The notes below the pieces were generated by a model. It worked only from the letters and a program-made list of their open reading frames with translations. It ran no database searches and had not been told where the DNA came from. From positions 64,001 through 128,000 of IMG/VR virus record IMGVR_UViG_3300036715_002050: a stretch of 64,000 nt of DNA; one strand, given 5' to 3'. Source of the DNA: a virus. Of the stretch, positions 5,993 through 54,862 are shown piece after piece. Both the position numbers and the translations under genes were made by a program. Every line of letters starts with the position of its first letter. The first letter of the stretch is position 1.

Positions 5993-6064
5993 GGTCCTGT
6001 AGCTTATATGGTAGAGCACTGGCTTGAAACCCCAGACAATCAGATTCGAGTTCTGACGGGACCA
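5993..6064 (+). tRNA. tRNA-Phe(GAA)
   Basis: GGTCCTG/CGGGACC; loop TTGAAAC. Confidence 0.8.
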
Positions 6065-6564: not shown

Positions 6565-6637
6565 GGACGTGACGCCTAATGGTTTGGGCACGCAGCCGAT
6601 TACTGCGCACTAGGGAGTTCAATTCTCTCCACGTCTA
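6565..6637 (+). tRNA. tRNA-Ile(GAT), variant loop
   Basis: CGCAG-CCGATTA-CTGCG. Confidence 0.78.
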
Positions 6638-16410: not shown

Positions 16411-16942
16411 ATGGCTTTGACTAACACAATATCTTTCCGTAAAGTAAGGGAACCGTATGGGTGGATGTCTAACATGTCTCCGCACCCGGTCATGGTGGGT
16501 AACGAAATTTGGCGCACAACCGAACACTTGTTCCAAGCTGCGCGCTTTTTCCCGCACACCCAAAAAGAGATTCGGGACGCCATCCGTGAGTGCAAGTCGC
16601 CTATGGGTGCCAAGATGATAGCGAAGTCGCACGCGTCGAAAATGTGTGTGGTGCCTCGAAGCGATAACGACGTGCGTCAAATGTCTTGGATTCTTTCCAT
16701 CAAACTGGAACAGCACCCTACTTTGTTGACTGAACTAATTGGCACTGGGGACGCGATGTTGATTGAAGACGTAACGGCTCGTCCAAGTGAATCCGGATTG
16801 TTCTGGGGCTCGGGACCCGGCTTGCGTTTCGCCCGAAAACCCGCTAGGATGGTCTGGTTCGAACGTCTTGGGAAACACATGGATGGGGTGGAGAGAAATT
16901 TACCGAGCCCGTCTAGGAATTAGCTGGACACCAAATGATTAA
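16411..16942 (+). CDS. NADAR family protein, apparent frameshift near 16807
   Basis: PYGWMSNMS...TTEHLFQAARF...FWG; conserved W.G.N.LG..WM..R continues in the +1 frame to TAA at 16942. Confidence 0.8.
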
Positions 16943-17114
16943 AATTCTGAACAAGCTGTATCAAGTTGTTTGTGGAAATTGCGAAGGTATTTTGCAATTT
17001 CACTTTGAAGATGTCCGTCCAGTAATGACAAACAGTGTTGTTTGTCCGAATTGCAAAGCCAAAATTCAACTAAATCGGGTTCTAGAAACCCATGCAGTTA
17101 AAACGAGGTAACAA

Positions 17115-17624
17115 ATGACTTGCGTAAATATCGACATAGACTTAGAGTGCGACTTTTGTATGTGGTCGATTACGTATAAAAACCAAAGTTCTTTTGCGGC
17201 AGCCCAAAAAGCGATTGATGCCCACGCCGCCAAGCACCCGCCGCGCGCCAAAGTGTACGTAGCTTCCAAGTTCGAAAACCATGACGTGGTGCGTGATGCT
17301 CAAGGGGTGTTGTTGGAAAACCGATTCACCATCACGTACGACTGGACCAAGCACGTAACAGAAGGCCAGCCCGATAAAGCCGCTTGCGCTTTAGCAGATG
17401 CTAAAGGGGTGTTGGACGCCGACGCACTGTTGATGATCTACGCGCAAAACATGCGTGGGGCATATGTGGAACTGGGGTTGGCGTTGGGGAAAAAGATCCC
17501 GGTGTACTTGGTAAAACAGCCCGAAGTCGTAGACCAAGTCTTCTCCCACCACCCCTTGGTCAAGCATTTTAGCACTACCGCAGAAGCCATTCATCAAATG
17601 CGGGACGACTTTCCGTCGAAGTAA
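17115..17624 (+). CDS. Nucleoside 2-deoxyribosyltransferase-like protein
   Basis: KVYVAS...DAKGVLDAD...GAYVELGLA...IPVY. Confidence 0.75.
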   Translation: MTCVNIDIDLECDFCMWSITYKNQSSFAAAQKAIDAHAAKHPPRAKVYVASKFENHDVVRDAQGVLLENRFTITYDWTKHVTEGQPDKAACALADAKGVLDADALLMIYAQNMRGAYVELGLALGKKIPVYLVKQPEVVDQVFSHHPLVKHFSTTAEAIHQMRDDFPSK

Positions 17625-17637
17625 AAGGAGAATAACA

Positions 17638-17899
17638 ATGGGCTACCACAAGCGTGTCATTGCCAAAGGAACGTTCGGGGAAGCGTCTAAGATCCGAGAA
17701 GAGTTGGAAGAGTACGAAGATGCCATGGAGCAACACTGCGACCGTCGAACTGGCCGACTTGTACGGGGCTTTGGAAGAGTTGGCTAAGTGGCATGGCTTG
17801 AAGATGGAAGACTTAAAAACCATGTCTCATATCACTTCCAGCGCTTTTGAAGATGGTTCACGCAAGAGCGGCCCCAAGAAGCCGACGATAGACGATTAA
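17638..17899 (+). CDS. MazG-like/PRA-PH-like NTP pyrophosphohydrolase, apparent frameshift
   Basis: MGYHKRVIAKGTFGEASKIREELEEYEDA in one frame, VELADLYGALE in another. Confidence 0.55.
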
Positions 17900-17908
17900 A
17901 GGATCCCA

Positions 17909-18547
17909 ATGGGAGACACTAAATTGTTGCATCATAACCACCCAATCAATTGGCTAGCAATTAGTGAAGCTGTCGATCATTATTGTAATTACGGGTTCCG
18001 ATACGTAGAACTACCGTGGATCGTGCATCAAGAGGCGGTTTATGCCACACTCCCTGCCAACAAGACGTTCCACAAGATCGAACCGCCCAATCCGGACAAC
18101 GACGTGATGCCGCGCCGGGCATTGGTGGGTTCCGCCGAGCAAGGCTTTGTACAAGCTATGATTGAAGGACGTATGCCGCACGGCACGTTCGTGGCTGCCG
18201 GGCCTTGCTTTCGGGATGACCCGATTGACAAGCTACACCAGAAAACCTTTTTCAAGGTGGAACTCATCGAAGTCTTAGCCAATCCGTTAGATGCTGACGG
18301 ACAATTGCGCAAAGCTTTTCACATGGCAGAGTTCGCTCGGGGCTTTATGAGTCACTTGTTGACCACCGGGATGGAATTAGACCTTGTTCGAACTGCCGAT
18401 GGGTACGACTTGGAGTTAGACGGTATCGAAGTAGGGTCGTATGGGTACCGTGTATACAACGACAACCAATGGGTCTACGGCACCGGTTTGGCCGAGCCTC
18501 GGTGGACCCAAGCTATCGAAGCGTCTTGGCGTAAAGGAAACAGATAA
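17909..18547 (+). CDS. Stand-alone class II aminoacyl-tRNA synthetase catalytic-core-like protein
   Basis: LVGSAEQ, motif-2-like PCFRDD..D.LH...F.KVE, motif-3-like GTGLAEPR; no anticodon-binding domain. Confidence 0.7.
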   Translation: MGDTKLLHHNHPINWLAISEAVDHYCNYGFRYVELPWIVHQEAVYATLPANKTFHKIEPPNPDNDVMPRRALVGSAEQGFVQAMIEGRMPHGTFVAAGPCFRDDPIDKLHQKTFFKVELIEVLANPLDADGQLRKAFHMAEFARGFMSHLLTTGMELDLVRTADGYDLELDGIEVGSYGYRVYNDNQWVYGTGLAEPRWTQAIEASWRKGNR

Positions 18548-19284
18548 TGACCTACCCACGTAAGTTAACCAAAGAACGTGACTACGAAATCCGCAACCTT
18601 TTGACCGACCACACGCCCCAAGAGCTAGCGGAACTCCTGTACGACTTGGTGCGCAAGTCCCAAGTGTCCGAACGGACAATCCGTTGTACTGCAGTTCATA
18701 ACGAGTACGAAGTCTGTACTACATGCGACTTGTTGTCCATCTTTTGCGAGGACTAAATGTTATCCAATATCGATTCCGTCCGTATCCAACAAGTCGCACC
18801 CACCTTTTACGACGCCCACTTTGCACTCAAGGACTTTATCGATTATCGCCGGACCATCGAACTTTTACACGTTAACCAAGTTTATGACGCTCTCATCGAA
18901 AAAGTCCATCACGACCTTGCCCAATTACCCGAAGCTTCTATGGGTTTAGCTTTCCCACAGGAATTTTAACATGAGCCACCACGATAACTACCCTCCTTGC
19001 CGCAGCCACGAAATGATTTTGCATACCACCCGCGACAGAATGATTTGCACCAGATGTGGCGTCCGCTTTGCAAGTGGGTGTCGGACACTTCCCCTGGGAG
19101 CAAAACGGATTCTGTATAAGGGGTGTGGTGGGTAGGTCGGGTGCAGCGTACGTACCCCAACGCTTTCCCTAGGGACAAAAACCGATTGTTGGCGTGCGTT
19201 ACGGGACCCAACGTAGCGGGTAAGTGGTTGATTTTACTAGAAACGGTTTGGGAAAATTTTAAAAAAGGGATTCCGCCCTAGGGA

Positions 19285-19320
19285 AAGCACCACCGGGTCC
19301 CATACCGGTGGTGCTTATTA
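19285..19320 (+). terminator. Stem-loop, probable terminator
   Basis: AAGCACCACCGG-N8-CCGGTGGTGCTT. Confidence 0.55.
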
Positions 19321-19394
19321 AATTCGTTCCGGAATAAATGGGTGATTTTTATAGAGAATTAGGGTCGGATATATACACTTCACCCCGCGCCTGC

Positions 19395-19730
19395 CGGATG
19401 TAGGTGGATGTGGGACAATGTAGGGAAATTCGTTAACGAAACCTACATGTGGGTACATTAGCCTACAGTGTGTGGGGATGTGGGGAAGTGTGGGAGAAAG
19501 TGGGATGGTGTGTGTGGATGTGGGAGAAAGTGGGATGATGTGGGATGATGTGGGTGGATGTGGGGAAGTGTGGGAGAAAGTGGGATGGTGTGTGTGGATG
19601 TGGGACTAGGTGGGGAGGTGTGGGTCAATGTGGGTGGAGGTGGCCAGCTGTAGGCCAATGTGGGCCACTGTGGTATAGTGTGGGTCAATGTGGGCTTATA
19701 TGGGTCGCTGTGGGGTGCTGTGGGCCATTG
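19395..19730 (+). repeat. G/T-rich degenerate tandem array of (A/G)TGTGGG units
   Basis: Many TGTGGG/GTGGG units at ~10-nt period; 50-nt exact duplication at 19476-19525 and 19556-19605. Confidence 0.85.
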
Positions 19731-20004
19731 TACGATAGGGTAAGAAATTACACACATGAACACACATAAACCCACACGTAGTCCTGGGACACACACGCAC
19801 ACACACGCGCCCACATGTAAGATTTACACGCATTACAACCTACATTTACAACCTTTACTGTATAGCGCTGTGGAGCGCGCGGTATTATCCCCAATAGGTG
19901 ATTACACGCGCTTGTGGACGAGGCCGAAGTGTGGTCTAGTGGTTTTGCCCCGGTGACGCATAGCGAATCCGGGGGCTGCAAAGGGAACTAAAGCGGCCTA
20001 CCGC

Positions 20005-20439
20005 TTGACTCGCTCCCTGAAGTGTGGTTTAAGTAGTGAATCAGCCGCGACGTAGAGCGGCGCAGCAAGCCAGAGAGGGGTTAGGCGGGGTCTATCTCCG
20101 CGCGGTACCCTCGTGACCCTTCGGGGCGGGATTGGTTGAAGTAGACGGGTTGACTTCCGGTTCAAAGTGTGGTTTAAGTAGTGAATCAGCCGCCGCGAAA
20201 GGGTCTAGCAAGGTTCTGCGGTTTCCCGATGGGTTTGACTTCTCTTACCGATTCTGTTACACCTTATGGGCCTTCGGGCTCTCTTGTAGGACCGCCTCAT
20301 ATAGGGGTGTGGCGACACTGTAAAATGGGCTAGTCCGGCTGCAAGGTGCCCGATGTTCTAAGCGTATGGGGACGGATTAGCTACTGCGGTTCCACCTAAA
20401 AAGTGACCGCTTGACCCTTCGGGTCGGATGTAGTAGGGT
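20005..20439 (+). promoter_or_regulatory. Four tandem sigma70-type (early) promoters
   Basis: TTGACT/C at 20005, 20150, 20235 and 20411, each N17 from a -10-like hexamer; 29-nt exact repeat at 20020-20048 and 20165-20193. Confidence 0.65.
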
Positions 20440-20445
20440 GGTTGT

Positions 20446-21134
20446 GTAGGGCAGGGCTGATAGCTCTCAACAAGTAGCGCCTAGACTATAGGTGGGCTAG
20501 GTGTCTAATGAAAGCGGTTTCTCCAACCGTTATTTGGAGTGTGGGCGTAATAGTAGGCTAGGGGATTGCCTAGAGGTAGTGTGACTCGTGTGGGCGCTTT
20601 TGGATGCGACCTACTATGAACGGGGCTACAGGTAAGGTTTCTCTAGTCGAAAAACAGGCCACAAACGCGGGTTGCGCGACGTACCCTAAACGGCGCGGAC
20701 AGACTGGCCCCACGGGCCCCCGGGTATGGGGAGCATACCGCAACGCCTGCTAGCACCCATAGCCTCTGCGTACGTCTGCAACCCTCTAAGGGGTTGTGGG
20801 CCCGGAAAGAGAGCCCCCTAGGCAAAACCCTAGGCAATACCTCGCGAGAGGGTTGGTCATATGGCCGTCAGGCTATCGTGCCAACAAACAGGAAGGCGCG
20901 GGCAGACAAAACGCGGGAGCCTGTCTAAATATGCGTAATGATTAGAGATTCCGTGAGAGTCGGGATCTGGTTGGCAGAGGCAAGCCGTGGTGACGGGAAT
21001 TATTCGGTTGTAGGAATAATGCTCGGAACGCGGTGCGCGCGCTGTCGGCTAGCTGTGATGGTCAATCCCGCGTGACTGGTGACACACCCGGACGGTTCAT
21101 CGTTCGGTGGCTGGGTTCGATTCCCAGGCGGGAC
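20446..21134 (+). ncRNA. Candidate large structured ncRNA ending in a tRNA-like domain
   Basis: No credible ORF; dense hairpins; 3' module TCCCGC/GCGGGA with T-arm CTGGG-TTCGATT-CCCAG (21066-21133). Confidence 0.5.
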
Positions 21135-21193
21135 ATTGTTGTACAGGGTTTCTCCCTTTAACTACGGGCGGAAACGCCCGGCGGAGTTCTACC

Positions 21194-21796
21194 ATGGCTA
21201 TCAAGCAAATCCGTATCCCGACGCACAACGTTTGTGTGGTCAAGGTGTTGGGCGCTGGGGCTGGCAAGTCGCCGCGTACGTCCACGCGGTGCGCGGTGGT
21301 GCCGGACCCGTGCGAGTGGTTGCGGAAGGCGCACGCGGGCGACGTGGTGGACGCGGGGCAGCACGCCGCGCCTGGTGGCAAGGCTCGGGCGGAAGTCTAC
21401 CGGGTGACGGTGCTGGACCCGGAAGCGGGGGATTTGCCGCCCAACGCGCCGAAGGCGTACCGGGATGCCTCCTTCAAGGCGGCTGCACGGTCTGCGGCAC
21501 GCAAGGCTCGGGTGGCTGGGGCGATTGTTGCGCCCGTGCCGGTCGCGGCTGTCAAGCCCACGGTCACTGTTACCGTGGTGGTGGATGCGCCCAAGGCTTT
21601 CAAGGCGCCCCGTGTGTCCAAGGCTTTGTCGGGTGCCACACCCAAGGCTTTGCCTGCCGCCAAGGGTGAGCGTAACGAGCCCGTCGGTAAGACGGTTGAC
21701 GTGTGCGTCCAGTGCAAGGCCCCGATTGGGTTGGACCATGAGGGCTCGCCCAAGGTTGGAATGGGTGGCGTCTGTTTCACGTGCGGCGAAAAGTAA
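21194..21796 (+). CDS. Basic Ala/Lys/Val-rich protein with C-terminal Zn finger
   Basis: GGAG RBS and ATG at 21194; CVQC...CFTC. Confidence 0.7.
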   Translation: MAIKQIRIPTHNVCVVKVLGAGAGKSPRTSTRCAVVPDPCEWLRKAHAGDVVDAGQHAAPGGKARAEVYRVTVLDPEAGDLPPNAPKAYRDASFKAAARSAARKARVAGAIVAPVPVAAVKPTVTVTVVVDAPKAFKAPRVSKALSGATPKALPAAKGERNEPVGKTVDVCVQCKAPIGLDHEGSPKVGMGGVCFTCGEK

Positions 21797-21874
21797 CAGC
21801 TTGTGCAGGGATGGGCCGCACACTCTAACGGGTTGCGGCTCGATTTGTTGTTCCCTTAACAAAAGGAAAGCAAA

Positions 21875-22099
21875 ATGTCCGTCGGGAATCCTTTTACGCG
21901 GCAGCTTGACACAAAGTTGTATGATGCGTCACAGCGGGTGGATTACATCCACGAAGACAAGTACGCTTCGCTTGGGGTTGCGGTGCTGGAAACGTGCCCG
22001 CTGGCTTTCTTGGCGCGGGAGGATCGTCCGCTGGATGCGGCACACTTGCCGGAAGCGTTGCGGCTGGATCAGGTCATGTCACGGCTGGCGTGGACCTGA
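21875..22099 (+). CDS. Hypothetical protein
   Basis: AAGGA RBS. Confidence 0.6.
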   Translation: MSVGNPFTRQLDTKLYDASQRVDYIHEDKYASLGVAVLETCPLAFLAREDRPLDAAHLPEALRLDQVMSRLAWT

Positions 22100-22327
22100 C
22101 ACATGCGCAACAATCCTATCCGTAAGTGTGAAAAGTGTGGGAAACGTACATCAGCCCACATTCTTGTACCATCCGTCAACAAGTATGGCGACGATTCCAA
22201 GCGCGTCATGCACTGTTGCTTGAAGTGTCAAGCAGAAAAGCGGGATCTGGAAAAAGACCGCTGACGTACCGGCACGTTTCGCTTAACGGCGGGGCGTGCC
22301 AATTGTTTAACCAGCAAAGGATTTGTC

Positions 22328-22675
22328 ATGCAAAAGTTTCCCAGCATCAAAGCGGTCCGCAAGGCGTTGGTCAAAATCAACAAAGACGTGGCCGGTTCTG
22401 CAAAAGAGGATGACGTGGAAGTGCGTCTGCAGGTGTTGGAGTCCGGGTATTGGGCTGTCCGGTTTGGGTCGGCGGATTACGACCAAGACCACCGTGGGTT
22501 GTGGGGCAGCGGGTACGTGCGCGGCGACCGGCGCAGGTTGAATTGCACGGACGTCGCCCGGGAGTTGCTTGACCAGTGCCGGGAGTCGTACGCGGAACAG
22601 CAAGCGTTCGCGGCTGCCGTGGCCCCGCAAGTGCGCGTCGACTTGGCTGCGCCGCGTTTCCCTGAAATTTGGTGA
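22328..22675 (+). CDS. Hypothetical phage protein
   Basis: AAGGA RBS; YDQDHRGLWG motif. Confidence 0.7.
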   Translation: MQKFPSIKAVRKALVKINKDVAGSAKEDDVEVRLQVLESGYWAVRFGSADYDQDHRGLWGSGYVRGDRRRLNCTDVARELLDQCRESYAEQQAFAAAVAPQVRVDLAAPRFPEIW

Positions 22676-22774
22676 CGTTTGGTAAAAAGCTTTTACAGCT
22701 TTACTGCGGCGTGTTTCTTAACGGAAACACGCCCGCGTTCGTTGTGGCGGTTAACCCCGAACGCGGAGCATAAC

Positions 22775-22981
22775 ATGCATACGTTCTATGTGATTGCGAT
22801 GTACTGCAGCATTCCGGCCCGTCCGATTGTGGTGCAGGCACGCAACGAAGTGCACGCGCTGCGCGTGGCAGAGCAGCGACGCGGTGCGGCATTCTTGGAC
22901 CACGGGCTGGTGCTGGTGTTCGCTGCGCCCGTGTTGACGGCGACGAACAAGGGCAACGGCGTGATGGAGTTGTCCAAGTAA
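22775..22981 (+). CDS. Hypothetical protein
   Basis: GGAG RBS and ATG at 22775. Confidence 0.55.
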   Translation: MHTFYVIAMYCSIPARPIVVQARNEVHALRVAEQRRGAAFLDHGLVLVFAAPVLTATNKGNGVMELSK

Positions 22982-23026
22982 CAAAGGCGCTTCCCTATCC
23001 ACAAGGTAAGGAAGCGTGATCGTTGT

Positions 23027-23107
23027 GCCCGATTGGTGGAATGGTAGACACAGCAGACTCAAAATCTGCCGCCGCAAGGCATCCCGGTTCGAGTCCGGGA
23101 TCGGGCA
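23027..23107 (+). tRNA. tRNA-Leu(CAA), long variable arm
   Basis: GCAGA-CTCAAAA-TCTGC; canonical class II body. Confidence 0.92.
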
Positions 23108-23150
23108 TTGTTGTTTGTTGTACGACTTTCCCACCCACAGGAGCAATACC

Positions 23151-23396
23151 ATGGCTTCACACAACATCGTTGCCACGTCGCTGTTCGATGAGATCGAGCC
23201 CAAGCGTCACGAGATGACGCAGGCTGAGTACGACACGGGCGTGTCCGAAGGGTCGGGGATTTGCTTATCCTGCGGAAACATCGCAGACACGTGCGAGGAA
23301 GAGTCGACCGGGGAGGAGTGCGACACGTGCGGGGAGTACGACGTGGTCGCCTTCGAAACCGCGTTCGTGGACGACAAGATCGAGATCGAGGACTAA
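23151..23396 (+). CDS. Acidic Zn-ribbon protein
   Basis: GICLSCG...ECDTCGE; AGGAG RBS. Confidence 0.7.
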   Translation: MASHNIVATSLFDEIEPKRHEMTQAEYDTGVSEGSGICLSCGNIADTCEEESTGEECDTCGEYDVVAFETAFVDDKIEIED

Positions 23397-23662
23397 AAAG
23401 CTTTGGGAAACGTAACGCCGCCTTACATTCCTTAGCGGGGGTGTAGGGCATTCGTCGTGGAGGAAGCATGACGTGGTCGCAAGACGGTCCGTTGACGTGA
23501 CGTAACTTTTTCTGAGAGCCCATCCAACGCACGAAAGGTGGATACAAATGCTGTTAAAAACGCGCTAGCCCGATCCGCGCGACCAAGTACGGGATAGGTT
23601 TGCTGGTTTTGCCTGACGTGAGATTGTCGCTTAGACTTTACTCATGCCACAAACCGGCGCGC

Positions 23663-23735
23663 GGGATCTTGGTGAAACGGTTATCACCTCCGACTTTTAA
23701 TCGGTACGTTGTGGGTTCGAATCCCACAGATCCCA
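23663..23735 (+). tRNA. tRNA-Lys(TTT)
   Basis: CCGA-CTTTTAA-TCGG; cloverleaf. Confidence 0.88.
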
Positions 23736-23780
23736 TTTGTTGTGCCAAGTTTGTTGTATAACTTTCGCCAGGAGACGCAC

Positions 23781-24008
23781 ATGGCTGTGCAAACGTTGGA
23801 CACACAAACGCGGGTCAACCGCGCGTTTGCGGGTGCCAAGGCCGATTGTAGCGGGTTGGCCGAAAACTGTTCTGCTACGTTGACCGAGTGGGCGATAAAC
23901 AAGACGTGCGCCAATTGGGAAGCGTACAAAGCCGCGTGTGCTGCCCACGACTCCGCTTACGCCGCGTCCATGCAAAAGTGGCGTCGTCGGTGGGGCTTGG
24001 AACCGTAA
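23781..24008 (+). CDS. Hypothetical protein
   Basis: AGGAG RBS. Confidence 0.6.
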   Translation: MAVQTLDTQTRVNRAFAGAKADCSGLAENCSATLTEWAINKTCANWEAYKAACAAHDSAYAASMQKWRRRWGLEP

Positions 24009-24074
24009 CGCCGCACGCAACACCGGGCACGCTTGCTCTAACGGGCGGCGTGCTCATCCTTTAACGGAGGCTGT

Positions 24075-24317
24075 ATGATCAAGCTGAAAGGTTCGTCGGC
24101 AGACGTGGCGCAAATCCAAGTCGCAACCCGCGTGCTGGCAGAAGCCACCACCACTTCCCCCTACCTGCGCAAGCCCCGCCGCAACATGCGGAACAAGGGT
24201 GTCACGTGCTCCTGCGGCAAGCCCGCGGCGTGCCGGGGCGCGTGCGGGGCGTGCTACTCCAAAGGGTACTTCGCGGCGTGGATCGCGTGTGGTGGCGTGA
24301 AGCCCGCGCCGAAGTAA
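24075..24317 (+). CDS. Small Cys-rich Zn-finger protein
   Basis: CSC...CRGACGACY; GGAGG RBS. Confidence 0.65.
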   Translation: MIKLKGSSADVAQIQVATRVLAEATTTSPYLRKPRRNMRNKGVTCSCGKPAACRGACGACYSKGYFAAWIACGGVKPAPK

Positions 24318-24359
24318 GCAACACCAGCAATAAACGCACGTGCGGTCGCGTGCGTGTCC

Positions 24360-24431
24360 GGCGCCATAATTTAACGGCTAGAATGGAGGCTTTTCAATCC
24401 TCCGGTGTGGGTTCGATTCCCACTGGCGTCA
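24360..24431 (+). tRNA. tRNA-Glu(TTC)
   Basis: GGCGCCA/TGGCGTC; loop TTTTCAA. Confidence 0.8.
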
Positions 24432-24866
24432 TTTGTTGTGCCAAGTTTGTTGTACGACTTTTACATAGGAGGCAGCATGCAAGCTTTGATTGCTGTGATG
24501 GTTTTCAAAAAGCTTATCCGCTACCGTCCCGGTGGTTGGGACGACCGCTATTACGTGGCGTGCTGCCCGAATACGTTGGTGATGCGATGATTGACCAACA
24601 TAACAGCGGCATAATCCGGGTCAAACTCCTCGCCATCGTCGTCGTGGTTCAAGCTGTTTTGAGCCCAGCAAGCGTCACATTCCATTGCGGCGTATGCACC
24701 GAAGGAATACCGCTCGACAGCGGGCACCGGTTCGATGGTGTTGGTTCGCGCGCACTTGCGGCAAAAGTACCGGCCCATGCCGGTGAAAGCTTGGATAGCG
24801 ATTATCCAACCAACTTTTGATCAGTGATTCTGTCAGCCGCACGGATCTTAACGGACACGTGCGGCT

Positions 24867-24992
24867 ATCGTTTGCGTAAGGGCGTGGCCCGCAAAGTCAC
24901 GTCCGTACGACGGTGTTTAAGGACAGCCGGTTGGGTTGATCACCCACAAATCAACAAAACAAGGCTTGGAGTTCAACTCTCCCGCAAACGAT
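24867..24992 (+). ncRNA. tRNA-mimic element (closing stem plus T-arm)
   Basis: ATCGTTTGCG/CGCAAACGAT 10-bp stem; GGAG-TTCAACT-CTCC directly before the 3' strand; followed by TTGTTGT. Confidence 0.6.
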
Positions 24993-25022
24993 TTGTTGTA
25001 CCACTTACACAGGGGTTCGCAC

Positions 25023-25376
25023 ATGGCTAACAAGACCACGTTGGAAGTGCTGGAAGAGGCCAAGGCTTTGTTGGCCAAGCCCGGGGTTTGGCAGCAGGGC
25101 TCCCGGGAGTATTTCGACAACGACGGCAAAGCCCACCACTGCGCCTTGGGTGCGCTGGACGAAGTAGTTGGCGGCTACACCCTGGCTGGCGACGACACCG
25201 AAGCGTTCTGGGCGCTGTACGAAGCCTTGCCCAAGCGACCGGAGAAGGCTTCGGTGGACATGTCGCCAGCCATGTGCATCGCACGGTTCAACGACCGGCA
25301 ATCGTCCCGGGCGCCCGTGCTGAGGCTGTTCTCACGCGCCATCCGCCGCGTGAAGCTGGATAACACACCGCTGTAA
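25023..25376 (+). CDS. DUF6197-like family paralogue 1
   Basis: A..LL..W.QG...CALGAL...FND pattern. Confidence 0.7.
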   Translation: MANKTTLEVLEEAKALLAKPGVWQQGSREYFDNDGKAHHCALGALDEVVGGYTLAGDDTEAFWALYEALPKRPEKASVDMSPAMCIARFNDRQSSRAPVLRLFSRAIRRVKLDNTPL

Positions 25377-25418
25377 TTGAACGGGCGCTGTTCACTTAAC
25401 GGTGACAGCGTCCATTGC

Positions 25419-25489
25419 CGGAGCGTCGTCCAACGGCAGGACAGTGGACTTTGAATCCACGAATGAGAGTTCGATTCTCTCCGCTCCTA
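25419..25489 (+). tRNA. tRNA-Gln(TTG)
   Basis: GTGGA-CTTTGAA-TCCAC. Confidence 0.87.
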
Positions 25490-25531
25490 TTTGTTACACA
25501 GCTTTTCACAGCTTTTCACAGGAGAGCGCAC

Positions 25532-25867
25532 ATGGCTCGGACGCGGCATTCGGTTTTGGTGGCGGCACGCAAGTTGATTGACACGCCGGAGAAGTGGTGC
25601 ACGGTTTGGTACGCGAAAAACGCCAAAGGATATGGCGTGATGAACATGGACCGAACCGCCACCGCTTTTTGCGCGGTGGGTGCAATCCAGCGGGTCTTGA
25701 ACGGTAATCGCCGCGCCACCGAACTGTATTTGGCGGACCTGCCCGCGTGGCGTGACTTGAACCGGTTTTTGAACTTTTTGAATGAGCAACCCGACACCAC
25801 CCACGACGACGTGTTGCATGCGTTCGATGAACTCATCCGTGAATCGCGCCCGAAGTCGCACAAGTAA
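25532..25867 (+). CDS. DUF6197-like family paralogue 2
   Basis: ARKLI..PEKWC...FCAVGAI...TTHDDVLHAFD. Confidence 0.7.
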   Translation: MARTRHSVLVAARKLIDTPEKWCTVWYAKNAKGYGVMNMDRTATAFCAVGAIQRVLNGNRRATELYLADLPAWRDLNRFLNFLNEQPDTTHDDVLHAFDELIRESRPKSHK

Positions 25868-36412: not shown

Positions 36413-36482
36413 GGACCCGAGGGACGGTTTCTCAGCCGGATCTTATAAGTTTGGTCAGACGGTTCAACTCCGTCCGGGTCTA
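36413..36482 (+). tRNA. tRNA-Ile(TAT), compact atypical
   Basis: GGACCCG/CGGGTCT; GCCGGAT-CTTATAA-GTTTGGT; GACGG-TTCAACT-CCGTC. Confidence 0.7.
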
Positions 36483-36519
36483 CTTCCTTAACCGCCGGTT
36501 CCCGGCAAAGGCGTAACAA

Positions 36520-36936
36520 ATGGGTCAGTCCACAGATGCGATTTTTGGTTATGGTATTTGCTTTGACGCAGAAGAATCTTTCGACTACGATATTGCTGAA
36601 CGCGTAGAAAAAGAATTGGAAGAGTTTGGTGTAGGGTATTGTTCGCACTGTTCTGGCGATTATCCTATGGGTTATTTGTATATTACTTCCACGATCAACA
36701 AAGCTTATCGTGGAAGTCCGGAAACCATCGACGTTATCGAATGCGCCCGTCGCCAAGAAGATTTCCAAGCCCAATGGGACAAGGATCTGTTCAAGGCTTG
36801 GGGCGTTGTACGTGCAGCTTTCCGTGACATGGACGAAGCGCAAGCGGAAGAAGATGACTGTGGCGATGAAGTCGAAGATCCTGACTTCGGCAGCAACACG
36901 GATCCACGTTGGTTCATTTGTTCGGATTGGAACTGA
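36520..36936 (+). CDS. Acidic hypothetical protein
   Basis: 138 aa ORF, MGQSTDAIFGYG. Confidence 0.65.
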   Translation: MGQSTDAIFGYGICFDAEESFDYDIAERVEKELEEFGVGYCSHCSGDYPMGYLYITSTINKAYRGSPETIDVIECARRQEDFQAQWDKDLFKAWGVVRAAFRDMDEAQAEEDDCGDEVEDPDFGSNTDPRWFICSDWN

Positions 36937-51371: not shown

Positions 51372-51435
51372 GCGTGTAAGTTGTTTGTGTGTCAAAAGCA
51401 GTCAAAAGCAGTCAACCCTAACCCAAGGAAGTGCT

Positions 51436-53637
51436 ATGCGTAAGAATGATTTGTCGATGCCGGAAGCCGTTACTATCCCAGACCTGAACTTTTCGTTCAC
51501 CGAAGGTGGTTCGGTGACTTATAGTGGCATCGTGGCGTTGATGGCTCAAAATGCTTTTCGTGACGGTGAAGTCTTGTATGGCTATGCGTCACCCACCGAA
51601 GACGAAAACTTTTTCATCCCTCCGGACAAGCAGCCGTTGTTCGAAGAGATTGTGCGTGAAATCGTGGATCGACTAAGCATGGAGCGTGTCGACGGGGACA
51701 TCGGAATCACGCCTGATGGGAAGTTTGCGCGCGAAGACGGCATGCAACGTTTGTACATGTCGGACACGTCCGTGCTGAACGTTTCGGTCTACGTCCGCGG
51801 GACATCGTTGCAGGCCCAAACGTCCTTCTATTCGACCGACCCAGATCTGGGGCACGTGTTCGAAAAGCTCGTGCAGTTTTACAAGCTAAACCAGAAGCCC
51901 ATCCCGCCGCCCGAGCCGGAGCGTGAAGGGTCGGTGTATTGCTTGGTGACGACTCGTTCGGGTATGTCGTTCAAGGACATTGGCTCGATCTACATGCCGT
52001 TTGAGCCGAAGAACTACCCGGCAGACGTGGTGGCGGACTACGAATTCGTGGTCAAGGATATCGCATCCGTCATGCCTAATGGGCGCTTAGCGTTGATGGC
52101 GTCGGAGCCGGGTTGTGGGAAGTGCTGGGGGCGTGATACGGAAATTCTGATGCACGACGGGTCCATCAAGAAAGTCCAAGACATTGTTGCGGGCGAATTC
52201 GTAATGGGCCCCGACTCTACGCCACGCCGGGTTTTACGCACCAATACTGGGACAGGTCCCTTGTTCAAGATCGTGCCCACCAAGGGGCAGCCGTGGATTT
52301 GCAACGACGTCCACGTGTTGACTTTGGTCAGCAATGACGCCAAGTCAAAAGATGGGATCATCGACATTCCGTTAAATGAATATTTGACAAAGACGGATGC
52401 TTTCAAGCATCACCACAAACTTTTCCGCGTGCCCGTAACTTTTCCTGTGCAAGAGAAGTTGCCACTAGACCCATACTTCTTAGGATTGTGGTTTGGAGAT
52501 GGTACGAAAGACCTGAAAAGTGTGGGGATCTCCAAGCCTGACCGAGAAGTGTTGGATACGTGCCGTTCAATCGCTAAACAATTTGGTCTAGTTATTTCGA
52601 CTTCTATCTCGTCTAATGGATGCCCGACCCATCGCTTGGCTCAGGAAGAGTTGACTCGTTCGACGCCAAACAAGCTTGCACAGTTACTCAAGTCTGTTGT
52701 GGGAGAAGGCATTAACGTTCCACAAAAGTATTTGACTGCCTCTACCGAAGAACGTTTGGAATTCTTGGCCGGTTGGTTGGATTCAGACGGAGCGCTGTGT
52801 GGAACAAACTGTTACGACTTCATCCAGAAGCGCAAGGATTATTCGGACGCGGTTGCTTTCTTGGCGCGCTCAGTTGGGTTGGCTGCTTACGTGACTGAAT
52901 GCGAAAAGACTTGCCAAAACGACTTTACCGGTACATACTACCGTGTATCGATTTCTGGTGACACCTCAATTATCCCCATGAGAATTCCGCGCAAGATGGC
53001 TGCAATGCGTCAACAGATCAAAAGCGCGCTGCGCACGGGATTCGAAGTAGAGTCTATCGGTGACGGCGAATACTTTGGGTTCACGTTGGAAGGAGATGGG
53101 CGTTTGGTCATGGGTGACTTCACCGTGGGTCACAACACCAAGATGATTGAGTCCATCATCTACAACGCGCGTAACGACGCGGTGATCCCGATCTTTGTTC
53201 CTGCGCACGAAGTAGAGCACGTTGGGTCGCCGGACTTCTTGCGTGCGTTGATGGAGTTGAATGGCTCACGTAAGCTGATCGTGCTGGAGGACGCGGACTT
53301 GGCCTTGACCAAGCGCAAGAAGGGCACGCCCGGTGCGGACTTGAAGTCCATCGCCGCTCTGTTGAACTTGACGGACGGTATCTTGGGTAACACGTTAGAC
53401 TTGTACTTCTTGGTAACGACCAACGCGGAATTGCCCGAGCTAGATCCGGCCATTACCCGCCCGGGGCGTCTGTCCAAGTTGATTGCACCCAAGAAGCTGA
53501 CGGCTGTGGAAGCCGAAGAGTGCTTCTTGCACCACACCGAAACCCACCGCACTTTTAGCGAGCCGATGACGCTGGCGGCGGTGTACGAACAAATCCGTGC
53601 TCATCGCGCCAAGCAGTTGGTGTTGCCCGTAGAATAA
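51436..53637 (+). CDS. AAA+ ATPase interrupted by an intein
   Basis: Walker A EPGCGK|T, Walker B IVLEDAD, LLNLTDG, TTN, DPAITRPGR. Confidence 0.88.
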   Translation: MRKNDLSMPEAVTIPDLNFSFTEGGSVTYSGIVALMAQNAFRDGEVLYGYASPTEDENFFIPPDKQPLFEEIVREIVDRLSMERVDGDIGITPDGKFAREDGMQRLYMSDTSVLNVSVYVRGTSLQAQTSFYSTDPDLGHVFEKLVQFYKLNQKPIPPPEPEREGSVYCLVTTRSGMSFKDIGSIYMPFEPKNYPADVVADYEFVVKDIASVMPNGRLALMASEPGCGKCWGRDTEILMHDGSIKKVQDIVAGEFVMGPDSTPRRVLRTNTGTGPLFKIVPTKGQPWICNDVHVLTLVSNDAKSKDGIIDIPLNEYLTKTDAFKHHHKLFRVPVTFPVQEKLPLDPYFLGLWFGDGTKDLKSVGISKPDREVLDTCRSIAKQFGLVISTSISSNGCPTHRLAQEELTRSTPNKLAQLLKSVVGEGINVPQKYLTASTEERLEFLAGWLDSDGALCGTNCYDFIQKRKDYSDAVAFLARSVGLAAYVTECEKTCQNDFTGTYYRVSISGDTSIIPMRIPRKMAAMRQQIKSALRTGFEVESIGDGEYFGFTLEGDGRLVMGDFTVGHNTKMIESIIYNARNDAVIPIFVPAHEVEHVGSPDFLRALMELNGSRKLIVLEDADLALTKRKKGTPGADLKSIAALLNLTDGILGNTLDLYFLVTTNAELPELDPAITRPGRLSKLIAPKKLTAVEAEECFLHHTETHRTFSEPMTLAAVYEQIRAHRAKQLVLPVE
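52123..53136 (+). mobile_element. Intein with LAGLIDADG homing endonuclease (338 aa)
   Basis: Starts CWGRDT, ends VGHN before Thr; LGLWFGDG and LAGWLDSDG. Confidence 0.92.
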
Positions 53638-54862
53638 GTTGGCGTCCAAGGAGGGTCGATGACGATTGAGTATTCTAAGACATGGTCTGGACAAGACAAT
53701 TCGTCACCTTTGTGGGATGATGGGCATTGGGGGTGGATAGTCGACGATGATGCTGGACAAGTTCCATGGGAAGGAAACATGCGCCCTGCCGGTGACAAGC
53801 GATTCGACTTGAACCGTGCGATGAATTGCGTGGACGCGTATGGTGAAGTGTGTCTGTCCGATACCTCTTTTGTAAAGGTGACCGATGAGTAATCCCAAAG
53901 CCGCGTGGCCGCCCGCATCGGCGCCGCCCAAAGAACAACAGGAGCGGTCAGTTCGTGTAGATCGTGCCAACCAATATTGGTTGATAAGCCGCCGCGGCGC
54001 GCCACATGTGGGTCACCAAACCAAGACAGAACAACTCATGGGCTCGTGGTGGGTGAAGTTTCACGGTGGCGCGCCGGAACGTATCGATTGGTACGACCGG
54101 CAAGAGCGGTCGACGGTTGACACAATGGATTTGGTGCTCGATGAATGACCTAGATGAGTTCTACGGTGCGCTCGGCAAGCAATACGTTCCGTCACCCAAA
54201 GAGTTAGACGATGATGGGCCGGACTGTTGGTGGTCAGAAGACGGGAACGACCCCACGTCCTACAAGTACGATGGGACAGATTGGAAAGCGCTGGACGACG
54301 GTGGAGCAGACGATGGTCCCGGGCGCTGTTGGTGTGAAGAAGACGAATCGGAACGTATGGCAACGCGGGCAGCCCGAAAGTTTTTGCGGACTTATTCGAT
54401 GGGAGATCCCGATGTCCTATGACTGGAACGTCCGCAAAGAGATCAAGCGCCGGGAGCATCCGTGGAATCCGACCCGGTTTTACTTGTATGATTCGGGGCC
54501 GCACCAGCCCGTGCTAGAAGCACGCGCAAGACAAACACAAAAGAATCCGGAACGAGAGGGTTGGCAATTCGGGAACACCTGGCCCTATGCGTATCACCGC
54601 ACGTGGTCCGCGCCACTACAAACACAGTACCTTGACATGGACCCGGAAGCCGACTAGGATGGTGGTCATGGGTTACACGGGATGGACCGATGAAGACCCG
54701 GAAGAAGACCGCGACCGGGGGTACAACGCTCGTCAATCCGGGAGCCAACCGGTAGAATACCAAGCGCATTTTGTGTATGATGCAACAAAATTCGGGATAG
54801 AAAATCTTAGGTCTTATTTTGGAAAATGGCAGCGCGAACACGTAGGACACGAGGAAACACAA

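What the first reader, a model, noticed from the sequence alone, without database searches (positions are those of the whole stretch)
20446..21134. First product of the tandem promoters looks like a large ncRNA with a tRNA-like 3' end
Seen: ~690 nt without a credible ORF, starting just after the fourth promoter and packed with hairpins (CCTAG/CTAGG several times, TAGTAGG/CCTACTA, GCAACCC/GGGTTGT, TTATTC/GAATAA). It ends in a cloverleaf mimic whose anticodon arm is an 8-bp stem with a TTCA loop. Inference: a highly expressed early structural RNA (GOLLD-like or new), or a processive antitermination leader.
Basis: partly seen in the sequence, partly recalled or inferred. Interest (0 to 1): 0.7.

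Follow-up and report, generated by a model that had tools for sequence, protein, structure and literature searches.

The report
Long folded phage leader RNA, tRNA-capped
An uncultured large phage has about 620 gene-free, hairpin-rich bases between a host-type promoter and a stripped-down tRNA look-alike in front of its first small gene; this is most likely a long leader RNA cut off by the host's tRNA-trimming enzymes, but nothing yet shows that it has a job of its own.

Summary
Window 20446-21134 has no credible ORF, begins about where a promoter of this phage's own over-represented type should start transcription, folds somewhat better than shuffled sequence, and ends in a cloverleaf with no anticodon loop.

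The tRNA look-alike is the firmest part. It keeps the T arm, acceptor register, discriminator A and TTGTTGT trailer of the phage's real tRNAs.

I also found that the stretch is the genome's strongest CTAG hot spot. It holds 3 of the genome's 4 CCTAG/CTAGG inverted repeats.

- No Rfam family matches, GOLLD and ROOL included.
- There is no terminator inside the stretch.
- No RNA sequencing run is available.
- No relative close enough for a covariation test could be fetched. The nearest cultured phage is Myxococcus phage Mx1, at about 45% polymerase identity.
- The folding signal is modest: one of 7 coding controls came close to it.

My best reading is a long, processed 5' leader of an early or middle operon, built like the T7 early leader but ended by an RNase P/Z-type tRNA mimic instead of an RNase III hairpin. 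A free-standing functional ncRNA remains possible.

This scan has noted similar tRNA-punctuated structured leader RNAs on other DNA (e1-2576195, e1-3165478). They are not sequence relatives of this one.

The parts
20411..20439 (+). Promoter-like site TTGACC - 17 nt - TAGGGT; predicted start near 20446
   Evidence: Member of a motif family with 40 copies on the + strand, 9 on the - strand and about 6 expected per strand; 17-nt spacers dominate. It is not picked up by the stricter E. coli-type scan.
20446..21064 (+). ORF-free, folded leader / candidate ncRNA body, about 619 nt
   Evidence: No coding signal. MFE z -2.62, 0 of 70 shuffles as stable. No Rfam match. No intrinsic terminator.
20455..20464 (+). 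5' strand of a predicted 10-bp helix that pairs with 21041-21050 and closes the whole leader
   Evidence: Pair probability 0.94 in the ViennaRNA ensemble. Prediction only; there is no covariation.
21041..21050 (+). 3' strand of the predicted closing helix
20478..20503 (+). CCUAG...CUAGG hairpin 1
20557..20575 (+). CUAGG...CCUAG inverted repeat 2. It could form a local hairpin, but the minimum-energy fold uses these bases otherwise.
   Evidence: MFE pairing.
20817..20834 (+). CCUAGG-CAAAAC-CCUAGG hairpin 3, inside a direct repeat of CCCTAGGCAA
   Evidence: (probability 0.98).
20762..20981 (+). Predicted domain closed by the 8-bp helix GCCUCUGC/GCAGAGGC, holding eight hairpins
   Evidence: Sliding 150-nt windows here give z of -1.5 to -2.9.
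21065..21135 (+). Anticodon-less tRNA mimic: A1xC72 mismatch, 6-bp acceptor, GUG/CAC D-like stem, 8-bp stem with UUCA loop, T arm with UUCGAUU loop, discriminator A
   Evidence: It has the same register as the phage's real tRNAs.
21136..21142 (+). TTGTTGT trailer motif
   Evidence: 34 copies on the + strand and 10 on the - strand of the window. In one search, 10 of 43 T-arm hits (8 real tRNAs, 2 mimics) are followed by it directly after the discriminator.
21165..21180 (+). CGGGCG-GAAA-CGCCCG hairpin just 5' of the ribosome-binding site
21183..21796 (+). GGAG ribosome-binding site (21183-21186) and the first gene (ATG 21194, 200 aa, no relatives)
   Evidence: Only itself is found among 5.8 billion proteins. 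The Atlas search was uninformative.

Best explanation
The stretch is the long, untranslated, folded 5' leader of an early or middle operon of a roughly 160-kb Mx1-like phage.

Inferred mechanism:
1. Host RNA polymerase starts near 20446 from the TTGACC-17-TAGGGT promoter. Weaker promoter-like repeats lie further upstream.
2. It transcribes about 620 nt of hairpin-rich RNA, then a tRNA-derived element (21065-21135), then the first small gene.
3. The tRNA mimic keeps only what tRNA-maturation enzymes read: acceptor stem, T arm, discriminator and the phage's usual TTGTTGT trailer.
4. RNase P should therefore cut at its 5' side (about 21064/21065), and RNase Z or RNase E at its 3' side (about 21135/21136).
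5. That would give three products: a leader RNA of about 619 nt with paired ends, a 71-nt tRNA-like RNA, and an mRNA that starts with UUGUUGU, a GAAA-capped hairpin and the ribosome-binding site.

Shown: non-coding nature, promoter-family membership, tRNA-like anatomy, the shared trailer, CTAG-hairpin enrichment, and absence of a terminator.

Inferred: transcription, both cleavages, and any role of the released leader.
For: - No coding signal.
- The promoter at 20411 belongs to a strand-biased, over-represented family: 40 on +, 9 on -, about 6 expected per strand.
- No intrinsic terminator between 20446 and the gene.
- The mimic has the exact tRNA register of T arm, 7-nt acceptor strand, one discriminator base and TTGTTGT. 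That register is seen after real tRNAs at 6040, 6454, 8385, 23083, 23711, 24407, 29680 and 36376, and after a second mimic at 30102.
- TTGTTGT also follows T-arm-bearing elements at 24993 and 28580, and precedes ribosome-binding sites by 20-35 nt.
- The anticodon arm is replaced by a perfect 8-bp stem, not decayed.
- The leader folds better and more uniquely than shuffles, and more so on the + strand: z -2.62 against -1.49.
- In the one contig of a near-identical strain that spans 19077-21647, all 20 mismatches and 17 gap letters lie at 19210-20064 and none in 20065-21585.
Against: - There is no transcript evidence of any kind.
- No homologue was found, so there is no conservation or covariation test.
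- The thermodynamic signal is modest. One of 7 coding controls reached z -2.38. The running mean of local z-scores ranks 15th of 149 in the 8-kb neighbourhood, no better than tRNA- and hairpin-rich stretches downstream.
- UUCG and GNRA tetraloops are not enriched.
- The strain-level invariance is not significant against the low divergence of the flanking genes: about 6 differences in 2.8 kb, so about 1.5 are expected in the stretch.
- The CTAG inverted repeats are perfect Watson-Crick palindromes, so they fit a DNA-level reading equally well.
- The fold of the mimic alone is no better than shuffles, z -0.31. The case for it rests on motif and register.
Confidence: 0.5

Rival explanations
1. 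It is a free-standing functional large ncRNA. The roughly 619-nt leader, once released at the tRNA mimic, is stable and acts in trans as a scaffold, a sponge or decoy for a host or phage RNA-binding protein, or a self-assembling particle in the manner of GOLLD and ROOL. The three CCUAG/CUAGG hairpins would be its recognition or self-pairing elements.
For: - Its size, phage origin and direct link to a tRNA-like element resemble GOLLD and ROOL, which are described as phage or prophage RNAs often near tRNAs, sometimes with a tRNA in the GOLLD linker (passages read in bioRxiv 10.1101/2024.12.08.627333, and PMC5737381).
- Predicted paired 5' and 3' ends and a well-defined ensemble.
- CTAG is enriched 7-fold, and the stretch holds 3 of the genome's 4 CCTAG/CTAGG inverted repeats.
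- Palindromic tetranucleotides mediate symmetric kissing contacts in GOLLD and OLE.
Against: - No Rfam match.
- No homologues or covariation.
- No own terminator.
- In the predicted fold the CUAG words sit in stems, not loops.
- The folding z-score is only modest.
Confidence: 0.22
2. It is a DNA-level control region. The CTAG-centred palindromes downstream of the promoter are operators for a phage or host DNA-binding protein, such as a roadblock or shut-off of early transcription. Alternatively the whole 2.2-kb gene-free block, together with the 10-bp phased TGTGGG array, serves replication, packaging or DNA entry. The RNA folds would then be a by-product of the palindromes.
For: - The inverted repeats are perfect and their sequence is conserved, not covarying.
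- The direct repeat CCCTAGGCAA lies 12 nt apart.
- The opposite strand also folds somewhat better than shuffles, z -1.49 to -1.88.
- The adjacent array of about 27 phased repeats varies in length between strains.
Against: - The block is GC-rich and has no AT-rich unwinding element.
- Cumulative GC skew shows no turning point here.
- The tRNA mimic, trailer and 5'-UTR layout make sense only at the RNA level.
Confidence: 0.15
3. It is a processive antitermination or transcription-modifying leader of the put, nut or rrn type. The RNA would act in cis on the RNA polymerase that makes it.
For: It is the first RNA made from the promoter, and it is long and structured. A word resembling the rrn boxA consensus (which I recall from memory), CTCCCTTTAAC, lies at 21152-21162, just after the mimic.
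Against: - Terminator-like sites in 12000-31900 are no more frequent than in shuffles, 29 against 24.4 +/- 5.7, and convincing ones are rare in the early region.
- The boxA-like word lies outside the stretch and was not tested.
- Known put elements are about 70 nt, not 620 (recalled).
Confidence: 0.05
4. It is non-functional filler: decayed genes or decayed tRNA genes left between a promoter and the first cassette.
For: It is a singleton with no detectable relatives. The folding signal lies within reach of the coding controls.
Against: - No remnant protein similarity.
- Only one tRNA-like match in the whole block.
- The CTAG inverted-repeat clustering is non-random: 3 within about 360 nt, against a background in which 27 of the other phage loci held then (2.17 Mb in all) carry any.
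- Phage genomes rarely keep 0.6 kb of filler; the rest of this genome is densely coded.
Confidence: 0.08

Closest known systems
Phage T7 early leader: tandem host promoters A1-A3, an untranslated leader, the RNase III site R0.3, then gene 0.3. Recalled from Dunn and Studier 1983, not read here.
   Same: Host-type promoter(s), then a few hundred untranslated bases, then an RNA-processing element directly in front of the first small early gene. Further processing elements lie between the following genes, and arrays of short repeats lie just upstream of the promoters.
   Different: The processing element here is a tRNA mimic, expected to be an RNase P/Z substrate, not an RNase III hairpin. The leader is longer (620 nt from the last promoter) and carries repeated CCUAG/CUAGG hairpins. 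It is not shown that this region lies at a physical genome end.
GOLLD (RF01998) and ROOL (RF03087) large ornate phage/prophage RNAs
   Same: Length class (ROOL averages 581 nt, GOLLD often exceeds 800 nt), phage origin, closeness or direct linkage to tRNAs, and no known protein partner.
   Different: No covariance-model match even at E <= 10. No homologues, so no ornate conserved structure can be claimed. It has no terminator of its own and runs into a gene.
MALAT1/mascRNA-type 3'-end formation, and the mitochondrial tRNA punctuation model
   Same: A tRNA-like structure embedded in a longer transcript would be used by RNase P and RNase Z to define the 3' end of the upstream RNA and the 5' end of the downstream one.
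   Different: Those are eukaryotic or organellar systems. The mascRNA model scores only 16 bits against a 42.5-bit threshold. My two paper searches found no description of this in a phage operon, and cleavage here is inferred.
Bacterial and phage Y RNAs (YrlA type) with a tRNA-like domain bound by Ro60
   Same: Non-coding RNA with a tRNA-like module lacking an anticodon. The relative Mx1 encodes a TROVE/Ro60-like protein.
   Different: No TROVE gene in this 85%-complete genome, no Rfam Y-RNA match, and the mimic here keeps a full acceptor stem.
Modular tRNA-punctuated leader RNAs noted earlier in this scan on other DNA (e1-2576195, e1-3165478, e1-3466355)
   Same: Promoter-driven, ORF-free, hairpin-dense leaders of 0.7-1.2 kb at the head of early operons of mobile elements or phages, containing or ending in tRNAs or tRNA mimics.
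   Different: No shared sequence. Those are AI notes that I did not verify. Their conserved hairpin motif could not be compared because its sequence is not shown.

Membership tests
GOLLD RNA (RF01998) | Match to the Rfam covariance model at or above the gathering score | tested here: not met
   No hit at gathering or at E <= 10 with permissive filters on 19300-21700.
GOLLD RNA (RF01998) | Phage or prophage location near tRNA genes | tested here: met
   Phage with 36 tRNA genes. The stretch ends in a tRNA-like element.
GOLLD / ROOL | Elaborate secondary structure supported by covariation | not testable with these tools
ROOL RNA (RF03087) | Match to the Rfam covariance model | tested here: not met
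tRNA (RF00005) | Score at or above 29 bits, or an ARAGORN call with a 7-nt anticodon loop | tested here: not met
   ARAGORN gives no call at 21065-21135. The only clan hit is tRNA-Sec at 18.4 bits. The anticodon arm is an 8-bp stem with a 4-nt loop.
tRNA (RF00005) | T arm with a TTCRANY loop, 7-nt acceptor strand, discriminator base | tested here: met
   CTGGG-TTCGATT-CCCAG, then GCGGGAC, then A. Cloverleaf in the minimum-energy fold.
tmRNA | tRNA-like domain formed by the two ends, plus a tag reading frame; ARAGORN or Rfam call | tested here: not met
   No tmRNA call and no Rfam hit. The cloverleaf is contiguous.
RNase P/Z processing signal (works-like class: mascRNA, mitochondrial punctuation) | Coaxial acceptor plus T-arm minihelix with an intact T loop and a single-stranded 3' trailer | tested here: met
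   6 bp plus 5 bp with a UUCGAUU loop and a UUGUUGU trailer, in the same register as real tRNAs of the phage.
RNase P/Z processing signal (works-like class) | Observed cleavage at the 5' and 3' sides | not testable with these tools
   No RNA run holds the sequence.
Ro60/Y-RNA (YrlA-type) module | A TROVE/Ro60 gene in the same genome | tested here: not met
   PF05731 gives 0 matches in G000, and the control genomes ring. The genome is only 85% complete.
Processive antitermination leader (nut / put / rrn type) | Downstream intrinsic terminators that must be overridden | tested here: inconclusive
   29 terminator-like sites in 12000-31900 against 24.4 +/- 5.7 in shuffles. Only one strong site, at 12353, which lies upstream.
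Processive antitermination leader (nut / put / rrn type) | boxA/boxB or the put two-hairpin signature | not tested
   Only a recalled resemblance of CTCCCTTTAAC (21152-21162) to rrn boxA. No model was at hand.

The most novel reading that the evidence does not exclude
The roughly 619-nt RNA is a new class of large phage ncRNA, made by tRNA-mimic-guided excision from the head of the early transcript. Its three CCUAG/CUAGG hairpins, each a self-complementary palindrome, would serve as protein-binding or self-association sites, as a functional counterpart of GOLLD and ROOL in Mx1-like phages of sediments and microbial mats. The companion 71-nt anticodon-less tRNA would be a second product with its own role, for example as a decoy for tRNA-directed host enzymes.
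Probability: 0.15. Interest if true: 0.75.

Novelty: new variant of a known kind. Interest (0 to 1): 0.4.

Why it matters
If the leader is cut off at the tRNA mimic, this phage uses the host's tRNA-maturation enzymes to punctuate an operon. Textbooks give that role to mitochondria and to MALAT1-type RNAs in eukaryotes, while T7-type phages use RNase III for it.

It would also add a case in which a large structured RNA is physically coupled to a tRNA-like element in a phage. That link is unexplained for GOLLD and ROOL.

The CTAG-hairpin cluster gives a concrete handle for finding a binding partner.

If instead the stretch is a plain leader, the finding is ordinary phage gene organisation with an unusual processing signal.

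Tried and rejected
**Known RNA families.** Rfam at gathering on the whole window and at E <= 10 on 19300-21700 and 20300-36600 gave only sub-threshold tRNA-clan and chance hits.

**Alternative genetic codes.** Reading TAG, TGA or TAA through lengthens ORFs everywhere. A 311-aa minus-strand frame opens under TAG read-through, but it runs across the promoter repeats. Stop usage in long ORFs is ordinary (TAA 68, TGA 39, TAG 11), so I rejected recoding.

**Search for relatives**
- Phage database, blastn: no match.
- Flanking proteins in IMG/VR: none.
- The first gene has no relative among 5.8 billion proteins.
- The best relative of the HisRS-like neighbour is 49% identical. 80 IMG/VR loci found with its alignment held no similarity to 18970-21193 by nhmmer.
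- Polymerase relatives in IMG/VR are at most 46% identical.
- A T-arm-plus-TTGTTGT pattern gave 57 single-hit IMG/VR loci with no multi-hit contig.
- The same pattern gave at least 120 scattered bacterial loci. That is not informative for the host. One Gemmatimonadota tRNA-Lys resembles the mimic's 3' half, but it was selected by the pattern itself.
- A 21-nt UTR repeat gave 0 metagenome hits.
- blastn and nhmmer against 331 loci (3.27 Mb) gave only T-arm-level hits.
- A single-sequence covariance model of 20762-20981 found only itself in 80 loci plus the window. It found nothing credible in Mx1 and 9 complete or near-complete Mx1-like records (best E 2.9).
- A single-sequence model is weak, so these blanks do not show absence.
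- The Mx1 annotation over 38-135 kb shows no comparable gene-free block. The rest of Mx1 was not inspected.

**Expression.** No RNA holder is listed for the sequence.

**Strain variation.** There are no differences in the stretch, but too few differences are expected for this to count.

**Tetraloops.** UUCG and GNRA are not enriched: 3 in 1.35 kb against about 1.2 expected.

**Parent tRNA of the mimic.** No clear parent among the 36 tRNAs.

**First gene product.** Pfam, PHROG and Atlas searches were uninformative.

**Papers.** Search listings gave no paper on Mx1's genome or on tRNA punctuation in phage operons. Supplements were not opened.
Full report
**Setting**

The window is bases 64001-128000 of a 137,415-base IMG/VR virus record, classed as linear and about 85% complete. 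The phage carries:
- 36 tRNA genes, one of them with a CTA anticodon;
- GroEL, ribonucleotide reductase, a DnaE-like polymerase, a DnaB-like helicase and SbcCD;
- two intein-bearing AAA proteins, DUF932, DUF7275 and RNA ligase.

The nearest cultured relative is Myxococcus phage Mx1, at 44.6% polymerase identity and 46% for DUF7275. IMG/VR holds many Mx1-like genomes of about 160-180 kb, but none is above 46% polymerase identity. The large protein collection holds polymerases at 76% and 58% identity on ENA and Logan contigs. Near-identical DNA occurs in four sediment and microbial-mat metagenome runs, and none of them is RNA.

**The observation**

The finding lies in a 2.2-kb gene-free block, 18970-21193. 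In order, the block holds:
- a roughly 340-nt array of TGTGGG-type units at an exact 10-bp period;
- a set of TTGAC-containing repeats;
- the flagged stretch;
- a gene with a GGAG ribosome-binding site and ATG at 21194.

All 36 ORFs of at least 25 aa in 18960-21200 score <= 0.009 bits per codon on a codon model trained on 42 long ORFs of this phage, and their GC1/2/3 values are flat. Credible early genes score about +0.1 to +0.5 with low GC2 and high GC3. Ten small ORFs of the stretch match no PHROG or Pfam family better than E 0.14. Stop-codon read-through does not rescue a frame. So the stretch is non-coding.

**Promoter**

The strict sigma-70 scan finds nothing in 19300-21700. However, this phage uses TTGACN-N16-18-TAnnnT heavily. 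There are 40 copies on the + strand (most with a 17-nt spacer), 9 on the - strand, and about 6 per strand in shuffles. One search lists examples such as TTGACA-17-TAGGAT.

The three or four TTGAC repeats further upstream have TGn-extended but poor -10 hexamers and do not fit this family. 'Tandem promoters' is therefore only partly borne out.

**Folding**

The figures are:
- Whole 692 nt: -283.4 kcal/mol, z -2.22 with 20 shuffles. The opposite strand gives -230.5 kcal/mol, z -1.88.
- The 620 nt without the mimic: z -2.62, with 0 of 70 shuffles as stable. The ensemble is unusually well defined, with mean base-pair distance 72 against 160 +/- 43 and 1 of 70 shuffles as low.

The predicted fold has a 10-bp helix joining 20455-20464 to 21041-21050, and two domains of about 220 nt closed by 20540-20558/20745-20761 and 20762-20769/20974-20981. 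The second domain holds eight hairpins.

Against this:
- Seven coding controls of the same length gave z from +0.90 to -2.38, and the opposite strand of the target gave -1.49.
- In 150-nt windows the stretch averages about -1.05. That ranks 15th of 149 running means over 17-25 kb, on a par with the tRNA- and hairpin-rich early intergenic stretches.
- UUCG and GNRA tetraloops are not enriched.

'Packed with hairpins' is therefore true, but the thermodynamic evidence alone would not carry a claim of a functional fold.

CTAG occurs 9 times in the 690 nt, against a mean of 1.2 per window of that size. Only 0.2% of windows reach 9, and all of the richest windows listed overlap this locus.

Three of the genome's four CCTAG/CTAGG inverted repeats lie here, at 20480, 20558 and 20817. 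Two of them form high-probability hairpins. In 2.17 Mb of other phage loci such repeats are sparse: 27 loci have any, and several of those are T arms.

These are perfect palindromes with a conserved sequence. They would suit a sequence-specific protein on RNA or DNA, or self-pairing. This is the most concrete handle on function.

**The 3' element**

21065-21135 folds as a cloverleaf. It has a 6-bp acceptor with an A1xC72 mismatch, a 3-bp D-like stem whose loop keeps GG, an 8-bp stem with a UUCA loop in place of the anticodon arm, and a canonical T arm (CUGGG-UUCGAUU-CCCAG). ARAGORN does not call it. Rfam gives only tRNA-Sec at 18.4 bits and mascRNA at 16 bits.

The telling point is the register. 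As in this phage's real tRNAs, the T arm is followed by exactly 7 acceptor bases, one discriminator base (A) and then TTGTTGT. None of these tRNAs encodes CCA in the trailers printed.

TTGTTGT occurs 34 times on the + strand of the window and 10 times on the - strand. It follows:
- real tRNAs at 6040, 6454, 8385, 23083, 23711, 24407, 29680 and 36376;
- this mimic and the mimic at 30102;
- other T-arm-bearing elements at 24993 and 28580.

It usually lies 20-35 nt before a ribosome-binding site. Earlier notes of this scan described the same cassette layout, and I checked it here. The anticodon arm is replaced by a perfect stem, not eroded, which argues for a kept processing signal and against a dead tRNA gene. 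No parent tRNA is evident among the 36.

**What it most likely is**

No intrinsic terminator lies between 20446 and the gene. The RNA is therefore a leader unless it is cut.

The mimic offers just what RNase P and RNase Z or E read. I infer cleavage at about 21064/21065 and 21135/21136. That would release a leader of about 619 nt, a 71-nt tRNA-like RNA, and an mRNA beginning UUGUUGU, followed by a CGGGCG-GAAA-CGCCCG hairpin and the ribosome-binding site.

This works like the T7 early region, as I recall it: host promoters, a leader, an RNase III site, then the first gene, with more sites between genes. Here tRNA-type signals do the punctuating, as in the mitochondrial model and in MALAT1/mascRNA. 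My paper searches found only mitochondrial and eukaryotic descriptions of such punctuation (search listings).

Whether the released leader acts on its own is open. I put about 0.5 on 'transcribed and processed leader', of which a trans-acting role is a further possibility scored separately at 0.22. I put 0.15 on a DNA-level control region, 0.05 on antitermination, and 0.08 on filler.

**Comparison with known families**

GOLLD and ROOL share the size class, the phage origin and the link to tRNAs (passages read). Their models do not match here, and the defining covariation-supported structure cannot be tested. This is not a member of either family.

It is not a tRNA or a tmRNA. A Y-RNA/Ro60 module is unlikely, because this genome has no TROVE gene although Mx1 has one.

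**Conservation**

Every route to a comparator failed.

One contig of a near-identical strain spans 19077-21647. All of its 20 mismatches and 17 gap letters fall in 19210-20064 and none in 20065-21585. The leader is thus much less variable than the repeat and promoter block beside it. The flanking genes differ by only about 0.2%, however, so zero changes in 690 nt is not significant by that yardstick.

**Verdict**

This is a new variant of a known kind of arrangement, a processed phage early leader, with a fair but unproven chance of being a new large ncRNA. Interest is moderate (0.4) because it is a singleton without transcript or covariation evidence.

This scan has already noted similar modular, tRNA-punctuated leader RNAs on other DNA. 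Those notes are unchecked leads and share no sequence with this locus.

Noticed in passing
window 19397-19740: About 27 TGTGGG-type units at an exact 10-bp period on the G/T-rich strand, followed by a CA-rich tract. The array varies between strains: an 80-nt skip in one run, a 10-nt insertion at 19801 in two runs, and many substitutions. It could be a genome end, a packaging or entry signal, a Chi-like array or an origin.
   Followed up: partly
whole genome (G000), e.g. window 12799, 13679, 16417, 20411: A TTGACN-N16-18-TAnnnT promoter-like motif occurs 40 times on the + strand, 9 times on the - strand, and about 6 times per strand in shuffles. Most copies have a 17-nt spacer. The - strand structural genes must use another signal.
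   Followed up: partly
window 6065, 6479, 8411, 21136, 23108, 23737, 24433, 24993, 28580, 29706, 30128, 36401 and others: TTGTTGT (often TTTGTTGT) follows the discriminator base of many tRNAs and tRNA mimics and lies 20-35 nt before ribosome-binding sites. It occurs 34 times on the + strand and 10 times on the - strand of the window. It could be an RNase Z/E signal or a translational enhancer. The loop GGUUGUAG of hairpin 20999-21020 inside the leader resembles it.
   Followed up: partly
window 24867-24991, 27075-27123, 28522-28580, 30056-30126; also 6565-6636 and 12131-12210: Further T-arm-bearing, tRNA-like elements that ARAGORN does not call, some reduced to an acceptor-plus-T-arm minihelix. 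They lie between early genes or inside the tRNA cluster.
   Followed up: partly
window 10826-10896: A tRNA with anticodon CTA (amber-reading). TAG ends only 11 of 118 long ORFs, but read-through tests gave no sign of genome-wide recoding.
   Followed up: partly
window 20020-20048 and 20165-20193: An exact 29-nt direct repeat, AAGTGTGGTTTAAGTAGTGAATCAGCCGC, each copy preceded by TTGACT. A third, diverged copy lies near 19927.
   Followed up: partly
window 21152-21162: CTCCCTTTAAC, just after the tRNA mimic, resembles the rrn boxA consensus as I recall it. It was not tested.
   Followed up: no
window 51385-53637 and 54587-57100: Two neighbouring AAA-type ATPase genes each carry a Hint plus homing-endonuclease (intein) insertion.
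   Followed up: no
G000 32118-35141 (locus L004 13118-16141): The DnaE-like polymerase ORF is 1007 aa, while most relatives are about 1250-1330 aa with an extra C-terminal domain (PF14579). The gene may be split or interrupted here.
   Followed up: no
Mx1 record OR576727.2 56915-58564: The nearest cultured relative encodes a TROVE (Ro60-like) protein inside its tRNA region. No TROVE match was found in this 85%-complete genome.
   Followed up: yes
locus L222 3199-3279 (Gemmatimonadota MAG contig): A bacterial tRNA-Lys(CTT) whose T arm, acceptor 3' strand and TTGTTGT trailer are 28 of 31 identical to the mimic's 3' half. The locus was picked by the search pattern itself, so this is a weak lead on the host or on the mimic's origin.
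   Followed up: partly
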